From a virus (taxonomy: Duplodnaviria; Heunggongvirae; Uroviricota; Caudoviricetes): DNA of 64,000 nt. The stretch lies in IMG/VR virus record IMGVR_UViG_2706794662_000007; one strand, given 5' to 3'. The notes under the pieces are model-generated. The model saw only the letters and a list, made by a program, of their open reading frames with translations, ran no database searches and was not told the DNA's origin. Every line of letters starts with the position of its first letter. Positions within the stretch are counted from its first letter, which is position 1. Made by a program: the position numbers and the translations under genes. Positions 2,876-54,244 of this stretch are shown one piece after another.

Positions 2876-2909
2876 AGGGCTTGTGTAAATCAGGAGGGAT
2901 TGTGTCTAT

Positions 2910-2938
2910 ATGAAAATGCCCGGCGTGTTGCCGGGCAT
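2910..2938 (-). terminator. rho-independent terminator downstream of metG
   Basis: GC hairpin ATGCCCGGC/GCCGGGCAT followed by T-run in minus sense. Confidence 0.7.
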
Positions 2939-2958
2939 TGCGAAGAGAGGTTGTTTAA

Positions 2959-4897
2959 TTACTTAACCTGGTGGCCAGGTTTAGCACCAGCATCCGGGCT
3001 TAACAGGAAGATATCTTTCCCGCCAGGACCGGCAGCCATCACCATGCCTTCAGAGATACCGAAGCGCATTTTACGTGGTGCCAGGTTAGCCACCATAATG
3101 GTGTGACGACCAATCAGTGCCTGTGGATCTGGATAAGCGGAACGGATGCCTGAGAAGACATTACGCTTTTCACCACCGAGATCCAGCGTCAGGCGAAGCA
3201 GTTTGTCAGAACCTTCGACAAACTCCGCGTTTTCAATCAGCGCCACACGCAGGTCAACTTTGGCGAAGTCGTCAAAGGTGATGGTTTCCTGAATCGGTTC
3301 GTCAGCCAGTGGGCCAGTTACCGGTGCAGCTGTGGCTTTCACTTCTTCTTTGGATGCTTCCACCAGTGCTTCCACCTGTTTCATATCGATACGGTTATAC
3401 AGTGCCTTGAACGGATTCACTTTATGGCCCAGAAGCGGTTGCTGGATACCATCCCAGGTCAGTTCTGTATTCAGGAATGCTTCTGCACGTTCAGTCAGTT
3501 TCGGCAGTACCGGTTTCAGGTACGTCATCAGCACGCGGAACAGGTTAATGCCCATAGAGCAAATCGCCTGCAGATCTGCATCGCGACCTTCCTGCTTCGC
3601 CACCACCCACGGAGCCTGTTCATCGACATAGCGATTAGCCAGGTCAGCCAATGCCATGATTTCACGGATAGCTTTACCAAATTCGCGGCTTTCCCATGCT
3701 TCGCCAATCACTTCAGCGGCATCAGTAAAGGTTTTGTACAGTTGCGGGTCAGCCAGTTCGCTTGTCAGCACGCCGTCAAAACGCTTGTTGATAAAGCCTG
3801 CATTACGGGAGGCCAGGTTAACCACTTTGTTCACGATATCGGCATTCACGCGCTGAACGAAATCTTCCAGGTTGAGATCGATATCATCAATGCGCGAAGA
3901 GAGTTTCGCAGTGTAGTAGTAACGCAGGCTGTCAGCGTCAAAATGATTCAGCCAGGTGCTGGCTTTAATAAAGGTGCCGCGAGACTTGGACATCTTCGCG
4001 CCGTTCACCGTCACATAGCCGTGAACAAACAGGTTGGTCGGCTTGCGGAAGTTGCTGCCTTCCAGCATGGCAGGCCAGAACAGACTGTGGAAGTAAACGA
4101 TATCTTTGCCGATGAAGTGGTACAGCTCGGCGGTGGAGTCTTTCTTCCAGTATTCGTCGAAGCTTACGCTGTCGCCGCGCTTGTCGCACAGATTCTTGAA
4201 AGAACCCATGTAGCCAATCGGCGCGTCCAGCCAGACGTAGAAATATTTGCCCGGCGCGTTCGNNNNNNNNNNNNNNNNNNNNNNNNNNNNNNNNNNNNNN
4301 NNNNNNNNNNNNNNNNNNNNNNNNNNNNNNNNNNNNNNNNNNNNNNNNNNNNNNNNNNNNNNNNNNNNNNNNNNNNNNNNNNNNNNNNNNNNNNNNNNNN
4401 NNNNNNNNNNNNNNNNNNNNNNNNNNNNNNNNNNNNNNNNNNNNNNNNNNNNNNNNNNNNNNNNNNNNNNNNNNNNNNNNNNNNNNNNNNNNNNNNNNNN
4501 NNNNNNNNNNNNNNNNNNNNNNNNNNNNNNNNNNNNNNNNNNNNNNNNNNNNNNNNNNNNNNNNNNNNNNNNNNNNNNNNNNNNNNNNNNNCTCTTCGCT
4601 GTGCGTCGAGTGATAGTTGTCATAGCTGATGTTAAAGCCTGCGAAATCAGTCTGATGTTCCTGACTCATTTCGCCAATCATCTGTTCCGGTGTGATACCA
4701 AGCTGCTGTGCTTTCAGCATGATTGGCGTACCGTGGGCATCGTCGGCACAGATGAAATTAACCTCGTGGCCGCGCATTCGCTGGTAACGAACCCAGACAT
4801 CAGCCTGGATGTGCTCCAGCATATGGCCGAGGTGGATTGAGCCGTTAGCGTACGGCAGCGCGCACGTCACCAGAATTTTCTTCGCGACTTGGGTCAT
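2959..4897 (-). CDS. metG: methionyl-tRNA synthetase (interrupted by N-run 4263-4591)
   Basis: N-terminus [29 protein letters not shown] (HIGH motif) and C-terminus ...GAKPGHQVK match enterobacterial MetG as recalled; KMSKS present; ~140 residues hidden in the gap. Confidence 0.95.
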
Positions 4898-5054
4898 AGT
4901 AGGCATTACTTCTTTGTAGTGAAAAGGGGCTTGATAGTAACAAAATGGCCTTATGTCTGCCATGTGATAACAGCATTTCTCATAAATGATTAAATGTCGT
5001 AGCTGGAGTACACTACAAGGCGACAATTGCGCAAATTAAAATAAAGGAGACGGG

Positions 5055-6192: not shown

Positions 6193-6582
6193 CTACATCA
6201 CAGGACAATCATCAAACTCGCCACTTCTTGCGTCGTTGATAATGTGAGTGATCACACCAAACACGGCATTGCTGCCCGTGCATCCATCGTCATCCTTTGG
6301 CAATGCTTCCTTCTTACCGGTTCTTAAATCCTCCAGATGCTGACGTGGAGACTTCCGGTATCTTTTTACGCGATATTCCCCATCCAGAGCGCATACAAGC
6401 AGAGAACCATCAACCGGGGTAAGTGAGGAATCAACCACCAGCAATGCACCCTGTAATATTCCCTCACGATGATGACTATCAGCTGCTCTCATGAAGTAGG
6501 TCGCTGAAGGATGTCTAATTATCTGCTGATCAAGAGAAATACGGCTCTCAGCATAATCCGCCGCAGGAGAAGGGAAGCCCAT
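6193..6582 (-). CDS. UmuD'-like S24 peptidase-family protein (P1 HumD-like, natively lacking the UmuD N-terminal arm)
   Basis: starts MGFPSPAADYAESRISLDQQIIRHPSATYF, matching the UmuD region just after its RecA-mediated cleavage site; Ser and Lys positions retained; in-frame stop 4 codons upstream of ATG. Confidence 0.8.
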   Translation of the reverse strand: MGFPSPAADYAESRISLDQQIIRHPSATYFMRAADSHHREGILQGALLVVDSSLTPVDGSLLVCALDGEYRVKRYRKSPRQHLEDLRTGKKEALPKDDDGCTGSNAVFGVITHIINDARSGEFDDCPVM

Positions 6583-19444: not shown

Positions 19445-19631
19445 GTTGGTTTCCTTAAAGTGGTTCATAAAATCGATTTTAAAGCGTCTGGGAAGGGGGT
19501 CTAGTGGATTCTGTAGTGATGTTCAGGTCTGGAGTCTCTGATACAAAACAGCCTGCTTCCGTATATTAATAATTAATATGTAGTTATTTATATATATACA
19601 GAAGCAGGCTAATTACAGACGCCAGAACAAA

Positions 19632-20225
19632 CTAAGCAGCCTTCTTTGATGGTCTTTTTTTCCTGATCACATTCGCAGGATCATACCCTCCCAGACTTTT
19701 CATGACGTCCAAAGGGATCTTGCTTATAGAGTGCCCAGCGTCCTGACAGAATCCTCGAAAAACAACGAGCATACTGCCACCGGGGTTGATGTTTACTTCT
19801 ACCTGACCCAAATTGACGTCAGGCTCGACAAACGCTACGCGGCCACCAGACAGAATAATCGTCTCATTCGCATACTCTGTTGCACGCTCATACCACTTTG
19901 TATCGAGGGATTGAGGAATTAGCATCACTGTAGTAACTCCGCGAGCCTGCTCACGTATAGCAGCATCAATCCAGGGGGAGATTTTGGAGTAGGGTGGATT
20001 GAGGAAGGCAATTGTACCTGGCTGTCCCCATTCAGATTTCAAAGCATCACGCTCAATGCCTATGAAATTAGGCAGCTTTGCGTTGTCCTTGTTGCAGGCA
20101 ACGTCAACATCAAATGTCACTCCAAGATAACGTTGAATGGCAGAAAACAGCCAATCAGGTGTTCTCCAGAGGTCACGAAGAGAGTTGTCGCGCTTTCGCT
20201 GTTTGATTTTTTCGGCTGCAATCAT
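19632..20225 (-). CDS. dam: phage-type DNA N6-adenine methyltransferase (Dam-like)
   Basis: 197 aa with AFLNPPYS (NPPY catalytic motif). Confidence 0.8.
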   Translation of the reverse strand: MIAAEKIKQRKRDNSLRDLWRTPDWLFSAIQRYLGVTFDVDVACNKDNAKLPNFIGIERDALKSEWGQPGTIAFLNPPYSKISPWIDAAIREQARGVTTVMLIPQSLDTKWYERATEYANETIILSGGRVAFVEPDVNLGQVEVNINPGGSMLVVFRGFCQDAGHSISKIPLDVMKSLGGYDPANVIRKKRPSKKAA

Positions 20226-20283
20226 CTTCTTTCTCGATAGGTAAGTAAATACCTATTTTTGCATTTGATTTTATGTATGGCAA

Positions 20284-20326
20284 TCAAATAAAACGCGCCA
20301 GAAATGCGAACAAGAAGCTCTCTGGC
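20284..20326. terminator. bidirectional hairpin terminator
   Basis: CGCGCCAG...CTGGCGCG stem flanked by A-run and T-run. Confidence 0.5.
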
Positions 20327-20407
20327 GCGTTTTTTTGGTGCTGGGTATGGGTTATCTTACCCAGCACTATAAAGCTCTCTATGGGCTTTATTTTCAGTAG
20401 GGGAACG

Positions 20408-21217
20408 TCATCCAATAGTGTACTCCGCGACAAACTTCTTAACGATCGGTGATTCTTCGTTCAATGTTAGATTTCCACCGTCTCTAACGGCAATTCCTGT
20501 AGCTGGAAATACAGCCATCATTTGCCCAGCCTGAGTTGACGCAGTGTTAAGCGGATACGGTTTTTCTGGATTGCTCATTAAAGCAATCTTAATACTATTA
20601 CTTGTAGCCTTCTTTTCTGTAAGAAGGTGTCTCATGGAAATTACCGTGTAAACACTAATATCTGGACCTCCGCTAAACCAATTAAGAAGGTTTAATATCT
20701 TATCCTTCGCTTTGACAGGCGCGTTTTCGTAAGCGTCTAAGAAAATATCTTTTTCTAAGCCTGCTTTATTGAAAAACGAATCATCTTTATCACTTAAAGT
20801 AAAACTAGGACCTCTTGCAGCACGAGTTTTTTTATTTGTATTGCTATCATTTGACTGTTGAACTTTTAATTCATCATTAACCTCAACACAATCTTCAACC
20901 TCAATGATCCCCAACTGTTCTGGCTCATTTTCGGCAGCTTCACCACTTTCAGCGTTAATTACGTTTATAGGCTCATGCGCTAACTCCAACTCATTTAAAG
21001 CAGAGCTGAAATCACCTGCTTTTTCTTCATTGAACAGTTCTTCGGCAACATCATCAGAACTCATGGCTACGCCAGCATCGAGGCCGAGAAGCAGATCGTC
21101 AATATCATCAGTATTTTCAACCTGTGCAGCTTTTTTTACTGGTTCATCAAGTGATTGCAACATGGCTGTCAGCTCATCCAGATCATCATTTGTCATTACA
21201 TTTTCAACCGAACTCAT
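20408..21217 (-). CDS. hypothetical protein with strongly acidic N-terminal half
   Basis: 269 aa, first ~120 residues D/E-rich. Confidence 0.5.
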   Translation of the reverse strand: MSSVENVMTNDDLDELTAMLQSLDEPVKKAAQVENTDDIDDLLLGLDAGVAMSSDDVAEELFNEEKAGDFSSALNELELAHEPINVINAESGEAAENEPEQLGIIEVEDCVEVNDELKVQQSNDSNTNKKTRAARGPSFTLSDKDDSFFNKAGLEKDIFLDAYENAPVKAKDKILNLLNWFSGGPDISVYTVISMRHLLTEKKATSNSIKIALMSNPEKPYPLNTASTQAGQMMAVFPATGIAVRDGGNLTLNEESPIVKKFVAEYTIG

Positions 21218-30391: not shown

Positions 30392-31135
30392 TTACCATGT
30401 TCCCCATATAGGGTTTTCCAATAATCTCGCCTCCAACGAATTGGTTACTATTGCCGTTTGCAACGTTGGTTGGGGAGAGTTTGCAAAGTCTGAATACTCA
30501 TTTTCCTGCGTGACACGTTTATCTACGGCATGTTTAACGCCACTTGCTATGAAATGACGCATGATGCCCAACAGCCTCCGACTGTCTGCACTATCGTTTG
30601 CTAAAACATGCGGGAGCTGAAGTTCGATTTCTACCATTTCTCCATACTTACCAACAAACTGTAGTTTGTCCGCACTGTACTTTTTATCCCTCCTTTGGAT
30701 AAGGAAACCAGTAAAAGCATCACCTGGCGATGCCAAACTATCCACCCGCTTATTGGCAAGTCGAATAAGGTTGGTGAAAGCCATACAGTGATGCGCACCC
30801 ATTCCCCCAAAGAACCCTTCGCTATTAATGTTAAGATCTTCATTTTCATGGGATGCAATAAACCCAGGCCCGACGTTGGGAAGATATCCCCCCTCAACAA
30901 AAGGATTAATCAGGATCGGCGCAATACATCCAGGTGGTAGTGATTTCAAACTTTGCATCAATGGCGTCTCGGATATTAGACCAAGCAACGCGGCAAATTG
31001 TACTCCGTCAATATTGTTGCTGCCCCACAGAATACGTGGAGCCGCACCATTGGAAGTATGCCCATTGATCAGTTTTATCGACTGCATCACTGCAAATACC
31101 TGCAAAAACTGCGAGCGGCTTAATTTAAACGACAT
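30392..31135 (-). CDS. hypothetical protein
   Basis: 247-aa ORF. Confidence 0.45.
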   Translation of the reverse strand: MSFKLSRSQFLQVFAVMQSIKLINGHTSNGAAPRILWGSNNIDGVQFAALLGLISETPLMQSLKSLPPGCIAPILINPFVEGGYLPNVGPGFIASHENEDLNINSEGFFGGMGAHHCMAFTNLIRLANKRVDSLASPGDAFTGFLIQRRDKKYSADKLQFVGKYGEMVEIELQLPHVLANDSADSRRLLGIMRHFIASGVKHAVDKRVTQENEYSDFANSPQPTLQTAIVTNSLEARLLENPIWGTW

Positions 31136-33058
31136 AGCTGCGCCCCTCTTTAACTTCCAGCGTAATAGTTTCCCGGAACCATGACTTCATCTCTTTATGG
31201 GAGATAATCAGCACAGTACCTCGCTCGCGAGCTTTGGACTCCAGAATACCCATGAGGCGTTCAAGACCGGCTGTATCGAGTGCATCGTCAATTTCGTCGC
31301 CGATAAACAAATCGATGTTTTTACTCGCCCGGTTACTAACCAGATCCTGCAATGCCAAAGAACACGCAATGCGAACCTTCCGCTTCTCACCACCAGAGAG
31401 GGTCTGGAACGACTTACTTGAACCTTTCTTCTGCACACTAATGTTGAATTTGTCGCGATACTCACCTTTTTTGGTGACATCCATCGTCGACCACTCAGCA
31501 GTAATATTCCCGTCAGACAACGTATTGAGATACTCGGCAGTGCGTGTATTCAGGAAAGGCGTAACAGACGTCAAAATATGAGAACGCACCCCGGCAGGAG
31601 AGTAGACCTGACGAGCTTTTTCCAATAGCAACGTTTGTTCCTGAATAGCCTTCAACTCATCTTTTAAGGACTTGAAGGTAGACTTACTGGATACCAGGTT
31701 ATCTTCGTGTCTGGCGATAAGAGCAATAAACGGATTAATCTCTTTTGATATACGATCGACCTCAGTACGAGCACGAGTCACAAGAGACTCAATAGCAACA
31801 ATCTCCTTCTCACGATGACGCAAAGATGAGAGTTGTTTCGTAAGCTCTTCAATCCGGGCAATGATAGCCGTTACATCAGGTGTCGTTTTAACAAGGGCAG
31901 ACTCAATGCTTAACGCTTTCTCAAGATTCGTTTTGTGTTTAGCCATTGCCTCTGCAAGTGTCTTCGCCTGACCAATTTCCTGACGTGCTTGTTCAATGAA
32001 ATTCTCCTTCACCGTTGATAGATCTTCTTCGCAGTAGGCTTTGCCACAAGTAGGGCATGGTGATCCCACTTTAGTACCAACCTCTTCTGCTTTGGTCTTA
32101 AAATTACGCGCGCGGTTCATTGCATCAGCCTGACTATTTTCTGTAGCTTTGATGCTTGCCCGAATATCAGTTATCGCACCACGAACNNNNNNNNNNNNNN
32201 NNNNNNNNNNNNNNNNNNNNNNNNNNNNNNNNNNNNNNNNNNNNNNNNNNNNNNNNNNNNNNNNNNNNNNNNNNNNNNNNNNNNNNNNNNNNNNNNNNNN
32301 NNNNNNNNNNNNNNNNNNNNNNNNNNNNNNNNNNNNNNNNNNNNNNNNNNNNNNNNNNNNNNNNNNNNNNNNNNNNNNNNNNNNNNNNNNNNNNNNNNNN
32401 NNNNNNNNNNNNNNNNNNNNNNNNNNNNNNNNNNNNNNNNNNNNNNNNNGATTGTCGACTCCAATTTGGTTTTAACCACATCCATACGTGCGGCAGCTGC
32501 ATTAGCTCGCTCACGAGCAATAGCGTAGGCGCGTGTCAGTCTGTCAACGCCAGCGGCTTCTTCTACGATGGTTTTGAGGTTTTTGTCGGACATTCCAGGT
32601 AAATCTGGCATAGCTTCTTGGCTCGCATAGATGGAAGCCATGAAAACCTCTTTAGATGCACCGATCAGACGCTCGACGAACTCTTGCGTCAGCGCATCTT
32701 TGCCTTTCGTCATATCGCCGTCTTCACCACGAACGATAAGCCGATTTTTGAACTCTTTGTGTTTACGGTGACGAATGATCGCATATCTCTTGCCTTCATC
32801 CTCGATGGTTACTGCAACACGACAGTTCTTTTCATGGTCGGTAGACAACACATCGTCACCCTTCACACCATGAGCTGTTTCGCCATAAAGACACCACATC
32901 AGGCTATTCATTAGCGTTGACTTTCCAGAGCCATTACTTGATGCGGAACTATCATCACTATTAACACCCTGAATGAGCACTAAACCACGCTGATCTAACT
33001 CGACCTCCGCGCTGGCGATAGCCATAAAATTCTCAACCTGGAGCTTTAAAAACTTCAT
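31125..33058 (-). CDS. sbcC: SbcC/Rad50-like ATPase (interrupted by N-run 32187-32449)
   Basis: N-terminal Walker A GSGKST; C-terminal signature LSGGE and Walker B DEIDDALD; coiled-coil middle. Confidence 0.75.
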
Positions 33059-35350: not shown

Positions 35351-35367
35351 TTATTCACATATCCACA
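35351..35367 (+). promoter_or_regulatory. two tandem DnaA boxes (TTATTCACA, ATATCCACA)
   Basis: match TTWTNCACA consensus immediately left of GATC repeats and iterons. Confidence 0.6.
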
Positions 35368-35371
35368 GGAT

Positions 35372-35431
35372 AGATCCTAATAAAGAGATCCATAGATAGA
35401 TCCTTATATAGATCAAATAAGATCCCCGATC
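35372..35431. repeat. cluster of six GATC sites in five heptamer-like repeats ((T/A/G)AGATC(C/A))
   Basis: GATC at 35373, 35387, 35399, 35411, 35421, 35428; arrangement resembles P1 oriR as recalled. Confidence 0.6.
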
Positions 35432-35472
35432 GCTGTAAGCCGCGCCACGACTGGTCTGAAGTCATGTTCATG

Positions 35473-35573
35473 TATGCTGTCAGCGGTAATTGATAGTCTG
35501 TCAGCGGTTCACCGTATGCTGCCAACTGTTTTTGGTATTCTGTCAGCGGCAAATCAAGTATGCTGTCAGCGGT
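35473..35573. repeat. upstream iteron array: five 15-bp repeats TATGCTGTCAGCGGT at 21-22 bp spacing
   Basis: copies at 35473, 35494, 35515 (degenerate), 35537, 35559; overlaps repA promoter region. Confidence 0.8.
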
Positions 35574-35593
35574 TGAATGACAAAGGTGTCCAC

Positions 35594-36688
35594 ATGTCCA
35601 CAAAAAATAAAAAAGGTAAAAATAACAAAGAAGTAGAAGATAACATCGACAACTTTGAAGAAGGTTCCCTTGAATTGTACACAGGGGAACTTGTCCCTAA
35701 TAGCAACAATACAGTCCAACCAATTGCGTTGATGCGACTGGGGTTGTTCGTCCCCACGCTTAAGGGAACAAAATACAGTAAACGTAACAAGCCAAATGAG
35801 ATCGATGCTTCAAAGGAGCTTGTCCAGCTCGAAGTAGCCCGTTCTGAAGGCTATTCCGATATCAAGATAACCGGTCCTCGTCTCGACATGGATCATGATT
35901 TCAAAACGTGGGTGGGCGTTGTGCGTTCGCTGGCAGAATACGGCGAACCTAACGGTCGTGTCGAGTTAAGCATCACGAAATTTGCTAAGTTTTGTGGCTA
36001 TCCATCGTCACAGATCCGCAAAACACTCCGCGACCGGCTTACAAACAGTCTTTTGAAGATCATGCGTACAACTCTGTCTTTCCAGAGAACGTATGAAGAA
36101 AAGAACGTCGACGGCTCTAACAAGATCTCGCTTCTGATGGTGCACCTCATCAATAGCGTGGACTACAACGAGCAGAAAGATACGGTGGTGTTCTATGCAG
36201 AACCGAAGCTGGCCGAACTATATCGCTTTGACCATAAGGTTCTTTTGCAGTTAAAGGTTATCAATAAGCTACCACGCAAAGAAACAGCACAGGCTCTGTA
36301 CACCTTCATCGAAAGTCTTCCAACCAAGCCTGCGCCGGTATCGCTTGCTCGATTGCGTGCGCGACTCAATTTGAGTAGCAGGAATGTCAGCTCGCAGAAT
36401 CAGACTATACGTAACGGCTTAAAAGCTCTCCAAGATTTGGGCTATCTCGAATACAGCGAGATTAAGCGTGGGCGGTCGATCTATATCCAGATTCACAGCC
36501 GCAATCCAAAACTCAAAGTCGCACCGCCAAAACCTGAAGACATCGAACCCAAAAAACCAGATGAGAAAGCTGGGGAAATTGATGCCAAACAGAACATTAT
36601 CAACAAGATAACCGAACTTTCGCAGAATTTGACGCCTGAAAATATCAAGATGATTGAGATCCTTTCCAATAGTCTCAAACTGCTTTGA
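35594..36688 (+). CDS. repA: plasmid replication initiator RepA (P1 RepA-like)
   Basis: MSTKNKKG start; NSNNTVQPIALMRLGLFVP, DIKITGPRLDMD, ALYTFIESLP, HSRNPKLK resemble P1 RepA as recalled; flanked by iterons on both sides. Confidence 0.8.
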   Translation: MSTKNKKGKNNKEVEDNIDNFEEGSLELYTGELVPNSNNTVQPIALMRLGLFVPTLKGTKYSKRNKPNEIDASKELVQLEVARSEGYSDIKITGPRLDMDHDFKTWVGVVRSLAEYGEPNGRVELSITKFAKFCGYPSSQIRKTLRDRLTNSLLKIMRTTLSFQRTYEEKNVDGSNKISLLMVHLINSVDYNEQKDTVVFYAEPKLAELYRFDHKVLLQLKVINKLPRKETAQALYTFIESLPTKPAPVSLARLRARLNLSSRNVSSQNQTIRNGLKALQDLGYLEYSEIKRGRSIYIQIHSRNPKLKVAPPKPEDIEPKKPDEKAGEIDAKQNIINKITELSQNLTPENIKMIEILSNSLKLL

Positions 36689-37220
36689 TATGCTGTCAGC
36701 GGTGAAATGTATGCTATCAGCGGCTATTTTTCTGAAAAGTATGCTGTGAACGGTTAAAGATATGCTACCAGCGGTATAGTGAGATGAACGTATGCTGTGA
36801 GCGGTAAATCATCTATCACCACTCAATGCTCTGTCATACCTCCCCAGTGGTTACTAACCTCGAAGAGTGCATTCCATATAGGTTTGCGCTCACTAACATT
36901 CTATTGCTATTGCGCTGATTGCTTGTAGTGAAAGGCATTTATTGCCTGCTACTCCCTGATAGAACGTATGCTGTCAGCGGTGTTTTATTGAGGAATTTTT
37001 GTTTGGATATGCTATCAGCGGTAATTAATGGCATATGTCAGACATTCGTATGCTGCCAGCGGTAATTTTGTTCTGGTTATACCCATACCGGTACACATTA
37101 TTCATGCAATGTCTTAAGTATGCTGTCAGCGGTAAAAAATCGAGTAAAGTATGCTGTGAGCGGTGAGATAGACTCTCGATATGCTATCAGCGGTAGTTGA
37201 TTGTGTATGCTGTCAGCGGT
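36689..37220. repeat. downstream iteron arrays: 12 copies of TATGCT(G/A)(T/C)(C/G)AGCGG(T/C) in two clusters (incA-like)
   Basis: copies at 36689, 36710, 36740, 36761, 36791, 36967, 37008, 37049, 37119, 37150, 37180, 37206. Confidence 0.8.
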
Positions 37221-37267: not shown

Positions 37268-37480
37268 TTAGTGTATTTTCTTTAACAGACCCCAAAGTGT
37301 ACCGGCTTTTGTAGTCAGTTTTCCTGTTTCTGGATCGTACATACGCCATTCACGCCGCTGGTGGACGATATACCCATCTTCACGTTCCAGACGCTCAAGA
37401 ATGCCAGGCTGCTTGAAACCCTTAGCACGCCAGTAGCCGCTTGTTTTCTCGATTTCCAGACCTGCCAGTGTTAATGCCAT
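37268..37480 (-). CDS. hypothetical small protein
   Basis: 70-aa ORF. Confidence 0.35.
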   Translation of the reverse strand: MALTLAGLEIEKTSGYWRAKGFKQPGILERLEREDGYIVHQRREWRMYDPETGKLTTKAGTLWGLLKKIH

Positions 37481-53857: not shown

Positions 53858-54244
53858 ATGTCTGACAAAAACATTGAATTTATAGAAAGTCGCTATGCTG
53901 CTTTTATCGCAGGGCTGATTGAATCCTCACCTATGAGTCAGGCCCAAATAGCCAGACTTATTGGTTATAAAAATGCCAACAACCTTTCTTTAATTAAAAG
54001 TGGTAAAATTCCTTTGCCTATCGATAAGGTTCGTCCGCTGGCGTTGGCGCTGGGTATTGAGCCAAGTCGTCTTATGATGATGGTGCTGGAAGAACGCCAA
54101 CCTGAACTCGCAGCATTTTTATACAAAGAAGGTACCGCTCCTCTTAACGAGGACGAAAAACAGGTTCTTGCTGCATATAACGAGCGATTCGGTAAAGAGA
54201 AAGGCGCATCACAAAAGGTTGTTGAGGCCATAAAGTCTCTATGA
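53858..54244 (+). CDS. XRE-family helix-turn-helix transcriptional regulator
   Basis: MSQAQIARLIGYKNANNLSLIKSGKIPLP resembles HTH_XRE; only clear plus-strand gene in this region. Confidence 0.6.
   Translation: MSDKNIEFIESRYAAFIAGLIESSPMSQAQIARLIGYKNANNLSLIKSGKIPLPIDKVRPLALALGIEPSRLMMMVLEERQPELAAFLYKEGTAPLNEDEKQVLAAYNERFGKEKGASQKVVEAIKSL

What the first reader, a model, noticed from the sequence alone, without database searches (positions are those of the whole stretch)
19632..20225. Element-encoded Dam-type methylase paired with a GATC-dense origin
The element encodes its own NPPY adenine methyltransferase while the putative origin at 35372-35431 packs six GATC sites into 59 bp. In oriC and P1 oriR, GATC hemimethylation times initiation. 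Self-encoded methylation of the origin would allow replication control or restriction evasion independent of host Dam.
Basis: inference. Interest (0 to 1): 0.5.

Follow-up and report, generated by a model that had tools for sequence, protein, structure and literature searches.

The report
Phage Dam methylase plus P1-type origin
An SSU5-type phage-plasmid carries a phage Dam-family methylase gene and a P1-like plasmid origin packed with GATC sites; both are real but already-known modules, and the evidence suggests the origin relies on the host's Dam while the phage methylase is silent in the plasmid state.

Summary
ORF 19632-20225 (-) is an intact 197-aa PF05869 "phage Dam" methylase with an NPPY motif. 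Positions 35373-35431 hold six GATC in 59 bp, 25 times the window average and the only such cluster in the element.

The GATC block lies in a true origin that aligns base for base with phage P1 oriR: DnaA boxes, GATC heptamers, GC spacer, five iterons, repA (46% identical to P1 RepA) and a 12-iteron downstream array.

The proposed functional pairing is not supported:
- The GATC origin core occurs in 2,057 plasmid records and the methylase in 785. Yersinia pestis pMT1 keeps the six-GATC origin but has no PF05869 gene.
- In E. coli LF82 phage-plasmid Cyrano (methylase 195/197 identical), published RNA-seq shows the methylase at or below background in all ten samples, while repA is about 14 times background.
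- P1 itself has both a GATC origin and its own repressor-controlled Dam.

The methylase is most likely GATC-specific, because four characterised relatives are. It has its own promoter and shares a conserved palindrome with other DNA-metabolism genes, so it most likely acts during lytic growth. This is an ordinary member of known kinds and of low interest.

The parts
19632..20225 (-). Orphan phage Dam-family N6-adenine DNA methyltransferase gene (197 aa).
   Evidence: ORF. Pfam PF05869 at E = 5.4e-38. It is 27-34% identical to four GATC-specific phage Dams. It is 99% identical to Cyrano CYRAN_79. Comparison with pHCM2 gives pN/pS = 0.13.
19989..20000 (-). Codons for the catalytic NPPY motif (residues 76-79).
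   Evidence: Translation. The motif is invariant in alignment A2.
20255..20283 (-). Sigma-70-like promoter of the methylase gene: TTGCCA, 17-nt spacer, AAAAAT, preceded by TG.
   Evidence: Promoter scan. Conserved in pHCM2, a Klebsiella relative and Cyrano. This is a consensus match only.
20238..20255 (.). 18-bp palindrome TAGGTA-N6-TACCTA between the -10 element and the ribosome-binding site; a candidate operator.
   Evidence: Nine copies with up to 2 mismatches in the window against 1.0 expected; 0 of 100 shuffles reach nine. The half-sites are conserved upstream of the methylase in five diverged relatives.
20290..20333 (-). Terminator-like hairpin followed by a T-run upstream of the methylase promoter; it isolates the gene from the upstream ORF.
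   Evidence: RNA fold: -24.8 kcal/mol, z = -6.3.
19549..19611 (-). Long hairpin followed by a T-run just downstream of the methylase stop codon.
   Evidence: RNA fold: -28.6 kcal/mol, z = -5.5.
35351..35367 (+). Two adjacent DnaA boxes, TTATTCACA and ATATCCACA, at the outer edge of the origin.
   Evidence: Each has one mismatch to TTATCCACA. They align with the P1 oriR DnaA boxes.
35372..35432 (.). Five AGATC(C/A) heptamer repeats plus CGATCG, giving six GATC sites. This is the origin core and the predicted Dam/SeqA target.
   Evidence: The repeats align with the five annotated 'Dam methylation sites' of P1 oriR. Seven further replicons (P1 and six plasmids) hold 5-7 GATC in the same core.
35433..35460 (+). 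GC-rich spacer (GCCGCGCCACG.CTGG) shared with P1 oriR.
   Evidence: Alignment A1: the origin core is 75% identical to P1 against 40% across the iterons.
35472..35572 (+). Five direct iterons (GTATGCTGTCAGCGG) spaced 21-23 bp apart; the equivalent of P1 incC.
35587..35602 (+). Two tandem DnaA-like boxes (TGTCCACA twice) that overlap the repA start codon.
   Evidence: Read directly from the sequence. These are weak matches; the assignment is an inference from the P1 layout.
35594..36688 (+). repA, the iteron-binding replication initiator (364 aa from this ATG).
   Evidence: 46% identical to P1 RepA at E = 3e-86. Pfam Rep3_N.
36691..37219 (+). Twelve further iterons downstream of repA; an incA-like copy-control array.
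   Evidence: 22 matches in the window against 4.4 expected, with the rest scattered singly.

Best explanation
Two independently inherited, already-known modules sit on one SSU5-supergroup phage-plasmid (identical over the tested 2-kb methylase region to about 108-kb Shigella sonnei plasmids).

Module 1 is a P1-oriR/IncFIB-type plasmid replicon. Its parts are DnaA boxes, a core of GATC heptamers, five iterons, repA and a downstream iteron array. By homology with P1, the GATC core must be methylated for the origin to fire, and it is bound by SeqA when hemimethylated. In the plasmid state this methylation is supplied by the host Dam, which all known hosts possess.

Module 2 is an orphan phage Dam of family PF05869, most likely GATC-specific. 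It is its own transcription unit (terminator, promoter, palindromic operator, gene, terminator). The same palindrome precedes several replication and nucleotide-metabolism genes. The gene is silent in the plasmid state and is presumably switched on with the lytic DNA-replication genes. Its likely job then is to keep fast-replicating phage DNA fully GATC-methylated. That would protect against methylation-sensitive GATC nucleases and against MutH/SeqA effects when host Dam is outpaced.

If expressed, the enzyme would also methylate the origin's GATCs. That is a consequence of sharing a genome, not a dedicated pairing.

Shown here: the anatomy, the homologies, the decoupled distribution and silence in lysogeny in a 99% orthologue. 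Inferred: GATC specificity, lytic timing and the biological role.
For: Identity of the element. The methylase region (window 19000-21000) is 100% identical to S. sonnei and E. coli plasmids of about 108 kb. These belong to the SSU5 supergroup.

Origin.
- RepA is 46% identical to P1 RepA.
- The origin core is 75% identical to P1 oriR, with the GATC repeats in register.
- The P1 record annotates these positions as Dam methylation sites.
- Origin methylation is reported as essential for the P1 and ColV-K30 plasmids (PMC2865523).

Decoupling of origin and methylase.
- The origin core is found in 2,057 plasmid records, including 63 from Yersinia and 78 from Pantoea.
- The methylase is found in 785 records, with at most 4 from either of those genera.
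- All eight aligned origin cores hold 5-7 GATC.
- pMT1 has the origin and no PF05869 gene.

Methylase family.
- PF05869.
- 17 of the 21 positions invariant among VT2-type, HP2, T1 and Phi93 Dams are retained, and the protein is as similar to them as they are to each other.
- Those enzymes are reported as GATC-specific (PMC4190342; PMC6602927; PMC7556043).
- Purifying selection: pN/pS = 0.13.

Regulation.
- Flanking hairpins and a promoter-like site.
- The palindrome occurs nine times in the window against 1.0 expected, in each case in front of a minus-strand gene.
- It is conserved across diverged relatives.

Expression.
- Cyrano CYRAN_79 is 195/197 identical, and its upstream region is 96% identical.
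- Its log2(FPKM+5) is 2.32-4.14 in all ten samples. The LB mean is 6.0, against an element background of 9.8 and RepA at 133.

Precedent. P1 dmt lies behind a C1 repressor operator.
Against: - The enzyme's specificity has not been measured for any SSU5-group member, and 27-34% identity does not guarantee the same target.
- No expression data exist for the lytic cycle, so 'lytic' timing is inferred from silence in lysogeny and from the shared palindrome.
- The protein that binds the palindrome is unknown. In most copies the palindrome overlaps the -35 and spacer region, so it could be an activator site or a promoter element rather than an operator.
- Very low methylase levels could still be enzymatically meaningful.
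- pMT1 carries an unrelated PF01555 methylase of unknown specificity. It is therefore not a perfectly clean natural knockout.
Confidence: 0.7

Rival explanations
1. The element's own methylase is a dedicated partner of the origin. It methylates the origin GATCs in the plasmid state, so that initiation timing and copy control do not depend on host Dam.
For: The element encodes exactly one recognisable Dam-family enzyme. Its only dense GATC cluster is in the origin. The methylase is conserved throughout the phage-competent SSU5 group, with about 720 plasmid records at 60% identity or more, and it is under purifying selection.
Against: The methylase is transcriptionally silent in Cyrano lysogens while repA is expressed and the plasmid is maintained. 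The same GATC origin works in more than 1,200 plasmid records without this gene, including pMT1. Known hosts are all Dam+ enterobacteria (established knowledge). In P1 the equivalent phage Dam is repressor-controlled.
Confidence: 0.05
2. Coupling in the lytic or establishment phase. When it is induced together with the replication genes, the phage Dam rapidly re-methylates the origin core. That would abolish SeqA sequestration and allow repeated firing of the same P1-type origin for lytic amplification. Alternatively or additionally, it ensures that packaged DNA arrives fully methylated, so the methylation-dependent origin is competent immediately after infection.
For: No P1 RepL/oriL-like lytic replicon is annotated in the element. 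The methylase shares the palindrome with replication genes. P1-type origins need methylation. Lambda DNA made in dam+ cells is only about 50% methylated (PMC3299994), so host Dam is limiting during lytic growth.
Against: This is purely inferential. The lytic origin of SSU5-type phages is unknown. Most phages that carry PF05869 enzymes have no such origin, so a general genome-wide role is sufficient to explain the gene.
Confidence: 0.15
3. The enzyme is not GATC-specific. It has relaxed or different specificity and serves as a broad anti-restriction methylase, so it has no relation to the GATC origin.
For: Phage-borne adenine methylases with non-specific activity exist: Hia5, Hin1523 and M.EcoGII. 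Identity to the characterised GATC enzymes is only 27-34%. No solved structure is available to compare DNA-reading residues.
Against: The non-specific enzymes belong to other classes (alpha or beta, with DPPY plus FxGxG motifs), not to PF05869. Four PF05869 members that span Gram-negative and Gram-positive phages, and that are equally diverged from one another, are all reported as GATC-specific.
Confidence: 0.1

Closest known systems
Phage P1 plasmid replicon (oriR-repA-incA) together with the P1 Dmt methylase
   Same: The origin layout and sequence match: DnaA boxes, GATC heptamers in register, a GC spacer, five incC-type iterons, repA (46% identical) and a downstream iteron array. P1 is also a phage-plasmid that carries its own GATC methylase, and that gene is repressor-controlled.
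   Different: The iteron sequence differs (TGCTGTCAGCGG here). There are six rather than five GATC sites and twelve rather than nine downstream iterons. The methylase belongs to a different family: PF05869, 197 aa, against P1 Dmt, a 754-aa fusion of PF02086 and PF00145. No GATC-rich pac-like site was found.
PF05869 phage Dam methylases: M.EcoVT2Dam (Stx phages), HP1/HP2 Dam, T1 Dam, M.Phi93DAM
   Same: Same Pfam family. The NPPY and DxWxTP motifs are present, and 17 of 21 family-invariant positions are kept. All are small orphan enzymes without a partner nuclease.
   Different: Identity is 27-34%. The window protein has an extra basic C-terminal tail. It is carried on a phage-plasmid. Its target is untested.
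SSU5-supergroup phage-plasmids: pHCM2 (S. Typhi), Cyrano/pLF82 (E. coli LF82), p09EL50, pMT1 (Y. pestis)
   Same: The same backbone and gene order around both features. The methylase is 99% identical in Cyrano and 85% in pHCM2. The origin is syntenic in pMT1.
   Different: pMT1 has lost the nucleotide-metabolism and methylase block but keeps the GATC origin.
RepFIB/REPI replicon of pColV-K30 and other IncFIB plasmids
   Same: Same origin family. PLSDB types several of the sampled relatives as IncFIB. The GATC repeats are conserved. A methylation requirement is reported for ColV-K30.
   Different: These are ordinary or conjugative plasmids with no phage genes. The 12 conjugative of 785 methylase-bearing records, against 336 of 2,057 origin-bearing records, suggest most lack a PF05869 methylase, but the sampled plasmids were not checked individually.
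Vibrio cholerae chromosome 2 origin (oriII)
   Same: An iteron-type origin whose function depends on Dam and SeqA.
   Different: In oriII the GATC sites lie inside the initiator-binding iterons. Here, as in P1, they lie in a separate core outside the iterons.

Membership tests
PF05869 phage Dam (orphan N6-adenine DNA methyltransferase) | Match to the family profile above the curated cut-off. | tested here: met
   130.8 bits against a cut-off of 28.1, E = 5.4e-38, covering profile positions 5-160 of 169.
PF05869 phage Dam (orphan N6-adenine DNA methyltransferase) | Catalytic (N/D)PPY motif and the conserved N-terminal DxWxTP motif. | tested here: met
   NPPY at residues 76-79 and D18/W20/T22/P23 are invariant with four characterised members. 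17 of 21 invariant positions are kept.
PF05869 phage Dam (orphan N6-adenine DNA methyltransferase) | Methylates the adenine of GATC. | not testable with these tools
   Inferred only from four GATC-specific relatives. There is no solved structure and no methylome data for a dam- background.
PF05869 phage Dam (orphan N6-adenine DNA methyltransferase) | Orphan status: no cognate restriction endonuclease alongside. | tested here: met
   The gene is bracketed by hairpin terminators. The neighbours are a 269-aa and an 84-aa protein with no significant Pfam match, and RefSeq annotates them as hypothetical.
P1 oriR / IncFIB-type iteron replicon | A RepA initiator homologous to P1 RepA. | tested here: met
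   46% identity over 278 aa, E = 3e-86. Pfam Rep3_N.
P1 oriR / IncFIB-type iteron replicon | Five direct iterons upstream of repA and a second iteron array downstream of it. | tested here: met
   Five copies at 35472-35572 with 21-23 bp spacing, and twelve copies at 36691-37219.
P1 oriR / IncFIB-type iteron replicon | DnaA boxes followed by a core of GATC-containing heptamers at the repA-distal edge of the origin. | tested here: met
   Two boxes at 35351-35367. Six GATC at 35373-35431, aligned with P1's annotated Dam sites and conserved in eight replicons.
P1 oriR / IncFIB-type iteron replicon | Origin function requires Dam methylation, and the hemimethylated core is bound by SeqA. | not testable with these tools
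   Known for P1 and ColV-K30 (PMC2865523). Inferred here from sequence homology.
   The origin core occurs in 2,057 plasmid records and the methylase in 785. Yersinia and Pantoea replicons have the origin but not the gene. The methylase family occurs in about 2,000 phage records, the listed examples being non-plasmid phages.
   Published RNA-seq of the 99%-identical Cyrano orthologue. The methylase value (FPKM+5) is 6.0, below the element background of 9.8, while RepA is 133. This is indirect evidence because it comes from a sister element, not this isolate.

The most novel reading that the evidence does not exclude
The phage Dam is functionally tied to the GATC origin, but in the lytic or establishment phase rather than the plasmid phase. 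Switched on with the replication regulon, it would erase SeqA sequestration at the P1-type origin so that the plasmid origin can fire repeatedly as the lytic origin. It would also deliver fully methylated genomes whose methylation-dependent origin is competent the moment they enter a new cell. That would be a methylation-based switch between the plasmid and lytic modes of replication.
Probability: 0.12. Interest if true: 0.5.

Novelty: new member of a known kind. Interest (0 to 1): 0.17.

Why it matters
There is little here beyond correct annotation. The work places the plasmid origin of a clinically widespread Shigella/E. coli phage-plasmid lineage in the P1 oriR family, with exact coordinates for the DnaA boxes, GATC core, iterons and the incA-like array. 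It also predicts that the replicon depends on host Dam and SeqA. That prediction is useful for designing mini-replicons, for incompatibility typing and for curing strategies.

The phage Dam is probably one more example of phages carrying their own GATC methylase. Only the lytic-phase coupling hypothesis would add new biology, namely a methylation switch between plasmid and lytic replication.

Tried and rejected
1. P1-pac-like role. I looked for a second GATC cluster, for example near the terminase genes, in the window and in the full 109-kb relative. None was found; the origin is the only cluster of at least four GATC per 120 bp. A packaging-control role is therefore unsupported.

2. Global GATC bias. 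GATC is neither avoided nor enriched: 262 observed against 250 expected in the window, and 110 against 98 in the remainder of the relative. This is uninformative about restriction pressure.

3. Three GATC sites inside the 3' end of the methylase gene (19665, 19679, 19716). I considered autoregulation. I dismissed it as chance, because only seven clusters of three sites per 100 bp occur in the window, against roughly 15 expected by my own Poisson estimate.

4. Non-specific methylases (Hia5, Hin1523, M.EcoGII) as possible relatives. They belong to other classes with DPPY/FxGxG motifs, so they are not evidence against GATC specificity.

5. Search of solved structures by sequence: no hit at E <= 1. 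I did not run structure prediction because it could not settle target specificity.

6. Other DNA methylases in the element. None is annotated, and the DUF4942 protein gave no methylase domain.

7. Primary P1 papers (PMC206955, PMC553761) are not held in the library. I relied on a secondary statement in PMC2865523.

8. A 2026 preprint on phage-plasmid copy number concerns an unrelated 49-kb IncFII-like element.

9. Identity of the protein that binds the palindrome. The HTH gene at 53858-54244 has no Pfam hit, and no link could be made.

Full report
**What the window is.**
The 2-kb stretch around the flagged gene is 100% identical to plasmids of about 108 kb from Shigella sonnei. It is almost identical to E. 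coli O104:H4 plasmid p09EL50. The annotation of p09EL50 shows a siphovirus structural module. It also shows a large block of replication and nucleotide-metabolism genes: nrdAB, thyA, DHFR, dnaE, a DnaB-like helicase, ligase, RNase H and exonucleases. Partition genes and an iteron initiator are present too. This is the SSU5 supergroup of phage-plasmids, which includes pHCM2, pMT1 and a conserved S. sonnei clade (bioRxiv 10.1101/2025.09.12.675607).

**Checking the observation.**
- The ORF at 19632-20225 (-) encodes 197 aa. It matches Pfam PF05869 'DNA N-6-adenine-methyltransferase (Dam)' at E = 5.4e-38 and has NPPY at residues 76-79.
- Six GATC sites lie within 35373-35431.
- GATC is not enriched overall: 262 observed against 250 +/- 16 in shuffles.
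- The 59-bp block is about 25-fold denser than average. It is the densest cluster of any 4-bp palindrome in the window. Random placement reaches it in 4 of 5000 runs.
- No other cluster of at least four GATC per 120 bp exists anywhere in the 109-kb relative, including near the terminase genes.
- Both halves of the observation are therefore correct.

**What the GATC block is.**
The downstream ORF, read from the ATG at 35594, is 46% identical to P1 RepA (E = 3e-86) and carries a Rep3_N domain. The region between 35345 and 35460 aligns with P1 oriR at 75% identity, against 40% across the iterons. The shared order is:
- two DnaA boxes (35351-35367);
- AGATCC-type heptamers in register with the five sites that the P1 GenBank record annotates as Dam methylation sites;
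- a GC-rich spacer (GCCGCGCCACG.CTGG);
- five direct iterons with 21-23 bp spacing (35472-35572);
- repA;
- twelve more iterons at 36691-37219, the equivalent of P1 incA.

This is a complete P1-type replicon. For P1 and for the related ColV-K30 REPI replicon, origin methylation is reported to be essential, although not for initiator binding (PMC2865523). From my own knowledge, the hemimethylated P1 core is the site at which SeqA was discovered (Brendler, Abeles and Austin, 1995).

**What the methylase is.**
PF05869 enzymes occur in about 2,000 phage records, among them T1-like, Stx and Vibrio phages as well as HP1/HP2 and lactococcal 936-type phages. I retrieved four members with reported specificity: the VT2-type Dam of Stx phage 24B, HP2 Dam, T1 Dam and M.Phi93DAM.
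- All four hit PF05869.
- They are reported as GATC-specific. M.Phi93DAM was shown by SMRT sequencing and DpnI/DpnII digestion (PMC4190342). M.EcoVT2Dam is described in PMC6602927. References for HP1 and VT-2 are in PMC7556043.
- T1 Dam specificity rests on my recollection of Auer and Schweiger (1984).
- The window protein is 27-34% identical to them. They are 32-37% identical to each other. It keeps 17 of the 21 positions invariant among the four, and the other four changes are L>V, F>Y, I>L and G>N.

The non-specific adenine methylases Hia5, Hin1523 and M.EcoGII belong to other classes. GATC is therefore the best prediction, but it is unproven. No solved structure exists for comparison. The gene is under purifying selection: pN/pS is 0.13 against pHCM2, with synonymous sites saturated.

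**Is the pairing functional? Comparative test.**
- The 141-bp origin core has homologues in 2,057 plasmid records: 889 Escherichia, 601 Klebsiella, 237 Salmonella, 78 Pantoea and 63 Yersinia. Of these, 336 are conjugative plasmids.
- The methylase has homologues in only 785 records. Nearly all are non-mobilisable elements of about 105-130 kb. No more than four come from Yersinia or from Pantoea.
- I aligned the origin cores of P1, a Klebsiella SSU5-like element, Y. pestis pMT1, a 528-kb Pantoea plasmid, the 291-kb S. Infantis conjugative plasmid, a 216-kb Klebsiella conjugative plasmid and a Moellerella element. Each holds 5-7 GATC, and the first and last repeats are invariant.
- The GATC core is therefore an ancestral trait of this origin family and does not depend on an element-borne methylase.
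- pMT1 is close to a natural knockout. It keeps the syntenic gene order metallophosphoesterase, 645-bp gene, origin, repA, but it lacks the block that contains the methylase. Its only methylase is an unrelated PF01555 enzyme.

**Is the pairing functional? Expression test.**
E. coli LF82 carries the phage-plasmid Cyrano. Its CYRAN_79 'adenine methyltransferase' is 195/197 identical to the window protein. The gene order is the same, and the upstream region is 96% identical.

| Cyrano measure (S1 Table, PMC9928086) | Value |
|---|---|
| CYRAN_79 log2(FPKM+5), all ten samples (LB overnight, medium, macrophages) | 2.32-4.14 |
| CYRAN_79 LB values (FPKM+5) | 7.06 and 4.99 (FPKM about 2 and 0) |
| CYRAN_79 LB mean | 6.0 |
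| Element median background | 9.8 |
| Authors' 'moron' cut-off | 49 |
| RepA (CYRAN_63), LB mean | 133 |
| Plasmid copy number per chromosome | about 5.5 |

The origin therefore operates while the element's methylase is essentially off, and host Dam must be doing the methylating.

**How the methylase gene is organised.**
- A strong hairpin with a T-run lies upstream (20290-20333; -24.8 kcal/mol, z = -6.3).
- A sigma-70-like promoter follows (TTGCCA, 17 nt, TG.AAAAAT; 20283-20255).
- A perfect 18-bp palindrome TAGGTA-N6-TACCTA sits between the -10 element and the ribosome-binding site (20238-20255).
- Another hairpin with a T-run follows the stop codon (19549-19611).
- The palindrome occurs nine times in the window with up to two mismatches, against 1.0 expected; 0 of 100 shuffles reach nine.
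- Every copy lies just upstream of a minus-strand gene. These include nrdA, the epsilon-like exonuclease and the SbcD-like phosphoesterase.
- Its half-sites are conserved upstream of the methylase in pHCM2, two Klebsiella elements, Pectobacterium Drgb1 and Cyrano, even where the flanking DNA has diverged.
- The Cyrano genes of this region that appear in the retrieved rows of the table (SbcD-like, exonuclease, RNase H) are also at background in lysogens.

I infer a common regulator, most simply a repressor. This parallels the dispersed C1 operators of P1, one of which (Odmt) controls the P1 dmt operon. The binding protein is unknown, and in most copies the palindrome overlaps the -35 and spacer region, so an activator site cannot be excluded.

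**Most likely mechanism.**
In the plasmid state, RepA, DnaA and host Dam/SeqA run a P1-type origin, with copy number set by the iteron arrays. The phage Dam is off.

On induction it is probably expressed with the replication genes and methylates GATC across the rapidly amplifying genome. Host Dam alone leaves lambda DNA only about half methylated (PMC3299994). This would protect progeny DNA against methylation-sensitive GATC nucleases and limit the actions of MutH and SeqA.

A specific link to the origin in the lytic or establishment phase remains possible. It could work by relieving SeqA sequestration, or by pre-methylating packaged DNA. I rate that at about 0.12-0.15.

**Comparison with what is known, and verdict.**
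Every component is a member of a described family: the P1 oriR/IncFIB replicon and the PF05869 phage Dams. The coexistence of a GATC origin with an element-encoded GATC methylase already has a precedent in P1. The window sequence is public and the gene is annotated.

The functional inference is contradicted for the plasmid phase and untested for the lytic phase. Novelty: new (uncharacterised) member of known kinds. Interest: low.

Noticed in passing
window 13033, 18024, 20238, 21965, 29786, 34487, 37994, 59243, 62582 (each site 18 bp): The palindrome TA(G/A)GTA-N6-TAC(C/T)TA occurs nine times against 1.0 expected. Every copy lies just upstream of a minus-strand gene, among them nrdA, an exonuclease, an SbcD-like gene and the methylase. 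It is often followed by an extended -10-like TGnTAnAAT element. It looks like the operator or promoter element of a dispersed regulon, reminiscent of the C1 operators of P1. The regulator is unknown.
   Followed up: partly
window 36691-37219: Twelve same-strand copies of the origin iteron (TGCTGTCAGCGG, up to 2 mismatches) fill the gap after repA. This is an incA-like copy-control array; P1 has nine.
   Followed up: partly
window 35474-36688 versus 35594-36688: RefSeq annotates the initiator in the relative p09EL50 as 404 aa, which corresponds to the window ORF starting at 35474 inside the first origin iteron. Homology to P1 RepA begins after the ATG at 35594, which overlaps two DnaA-like boxes. 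The annotated start is probably too far upstream.
   Followed up: partly
window 18900-19034 (-): A 44-codon ORF between the methylase-proximal gene and RNase H matches Cyrano CYRAN_81 in size and position. CYRAN_81 is one of the most highly transcribed loci of that element in lysogens (117 against a background of 9.8). It could be a small protein 'moron' or a non-coding RNA.
   Followed up: no
window about 2900-5030 and 31125-33058: Relative to p09EL50, the plasmid-borne metG (methionyl-tRNA synthetase) and the SbcC-like AAA ATPase appear to be split into two ORFs each. The BLAST alignment breaks at window 4262-4592 and 32186-32450. They may be pseudogenes or variant alleles in this isolate.
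   Followed up: partly
window 13142-14755 (-): A 537-aa DUF4942 protein with no recognisable catalytic domain. I checked it as a possible second methylase and found no support.
   Followed up: partly
window 16682-17107 (-), 6193-6582 (-), 37268-37480 (-): Several further P1-related accessory genes are present besides the replicon: a TciA-like tellurite/colicin-resistance protein, an S24 UmuD/HumD-like peptidase, and a gene whose likely Cyrano counterpart (by gene order next to repA, not compared directly) is annotated 'P1 Cra protein'. The S24 peptidase is strongly expressed in Cyrano lysogens (148 against a background of 9.8).
   Followed up: no
L021 30298-30975 (Y. pestis pMT1, NC_017266): pMT1 lacks the PF05869 methylase. 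It carries a PF01555 (N6_N4) DNA methylase next to ArdA and ParB-like genes, an arrangement reminiscent (from my own knowledge) of conjugative-plasmid leading regions. Its specificity is unknown.
   Followed up: partly
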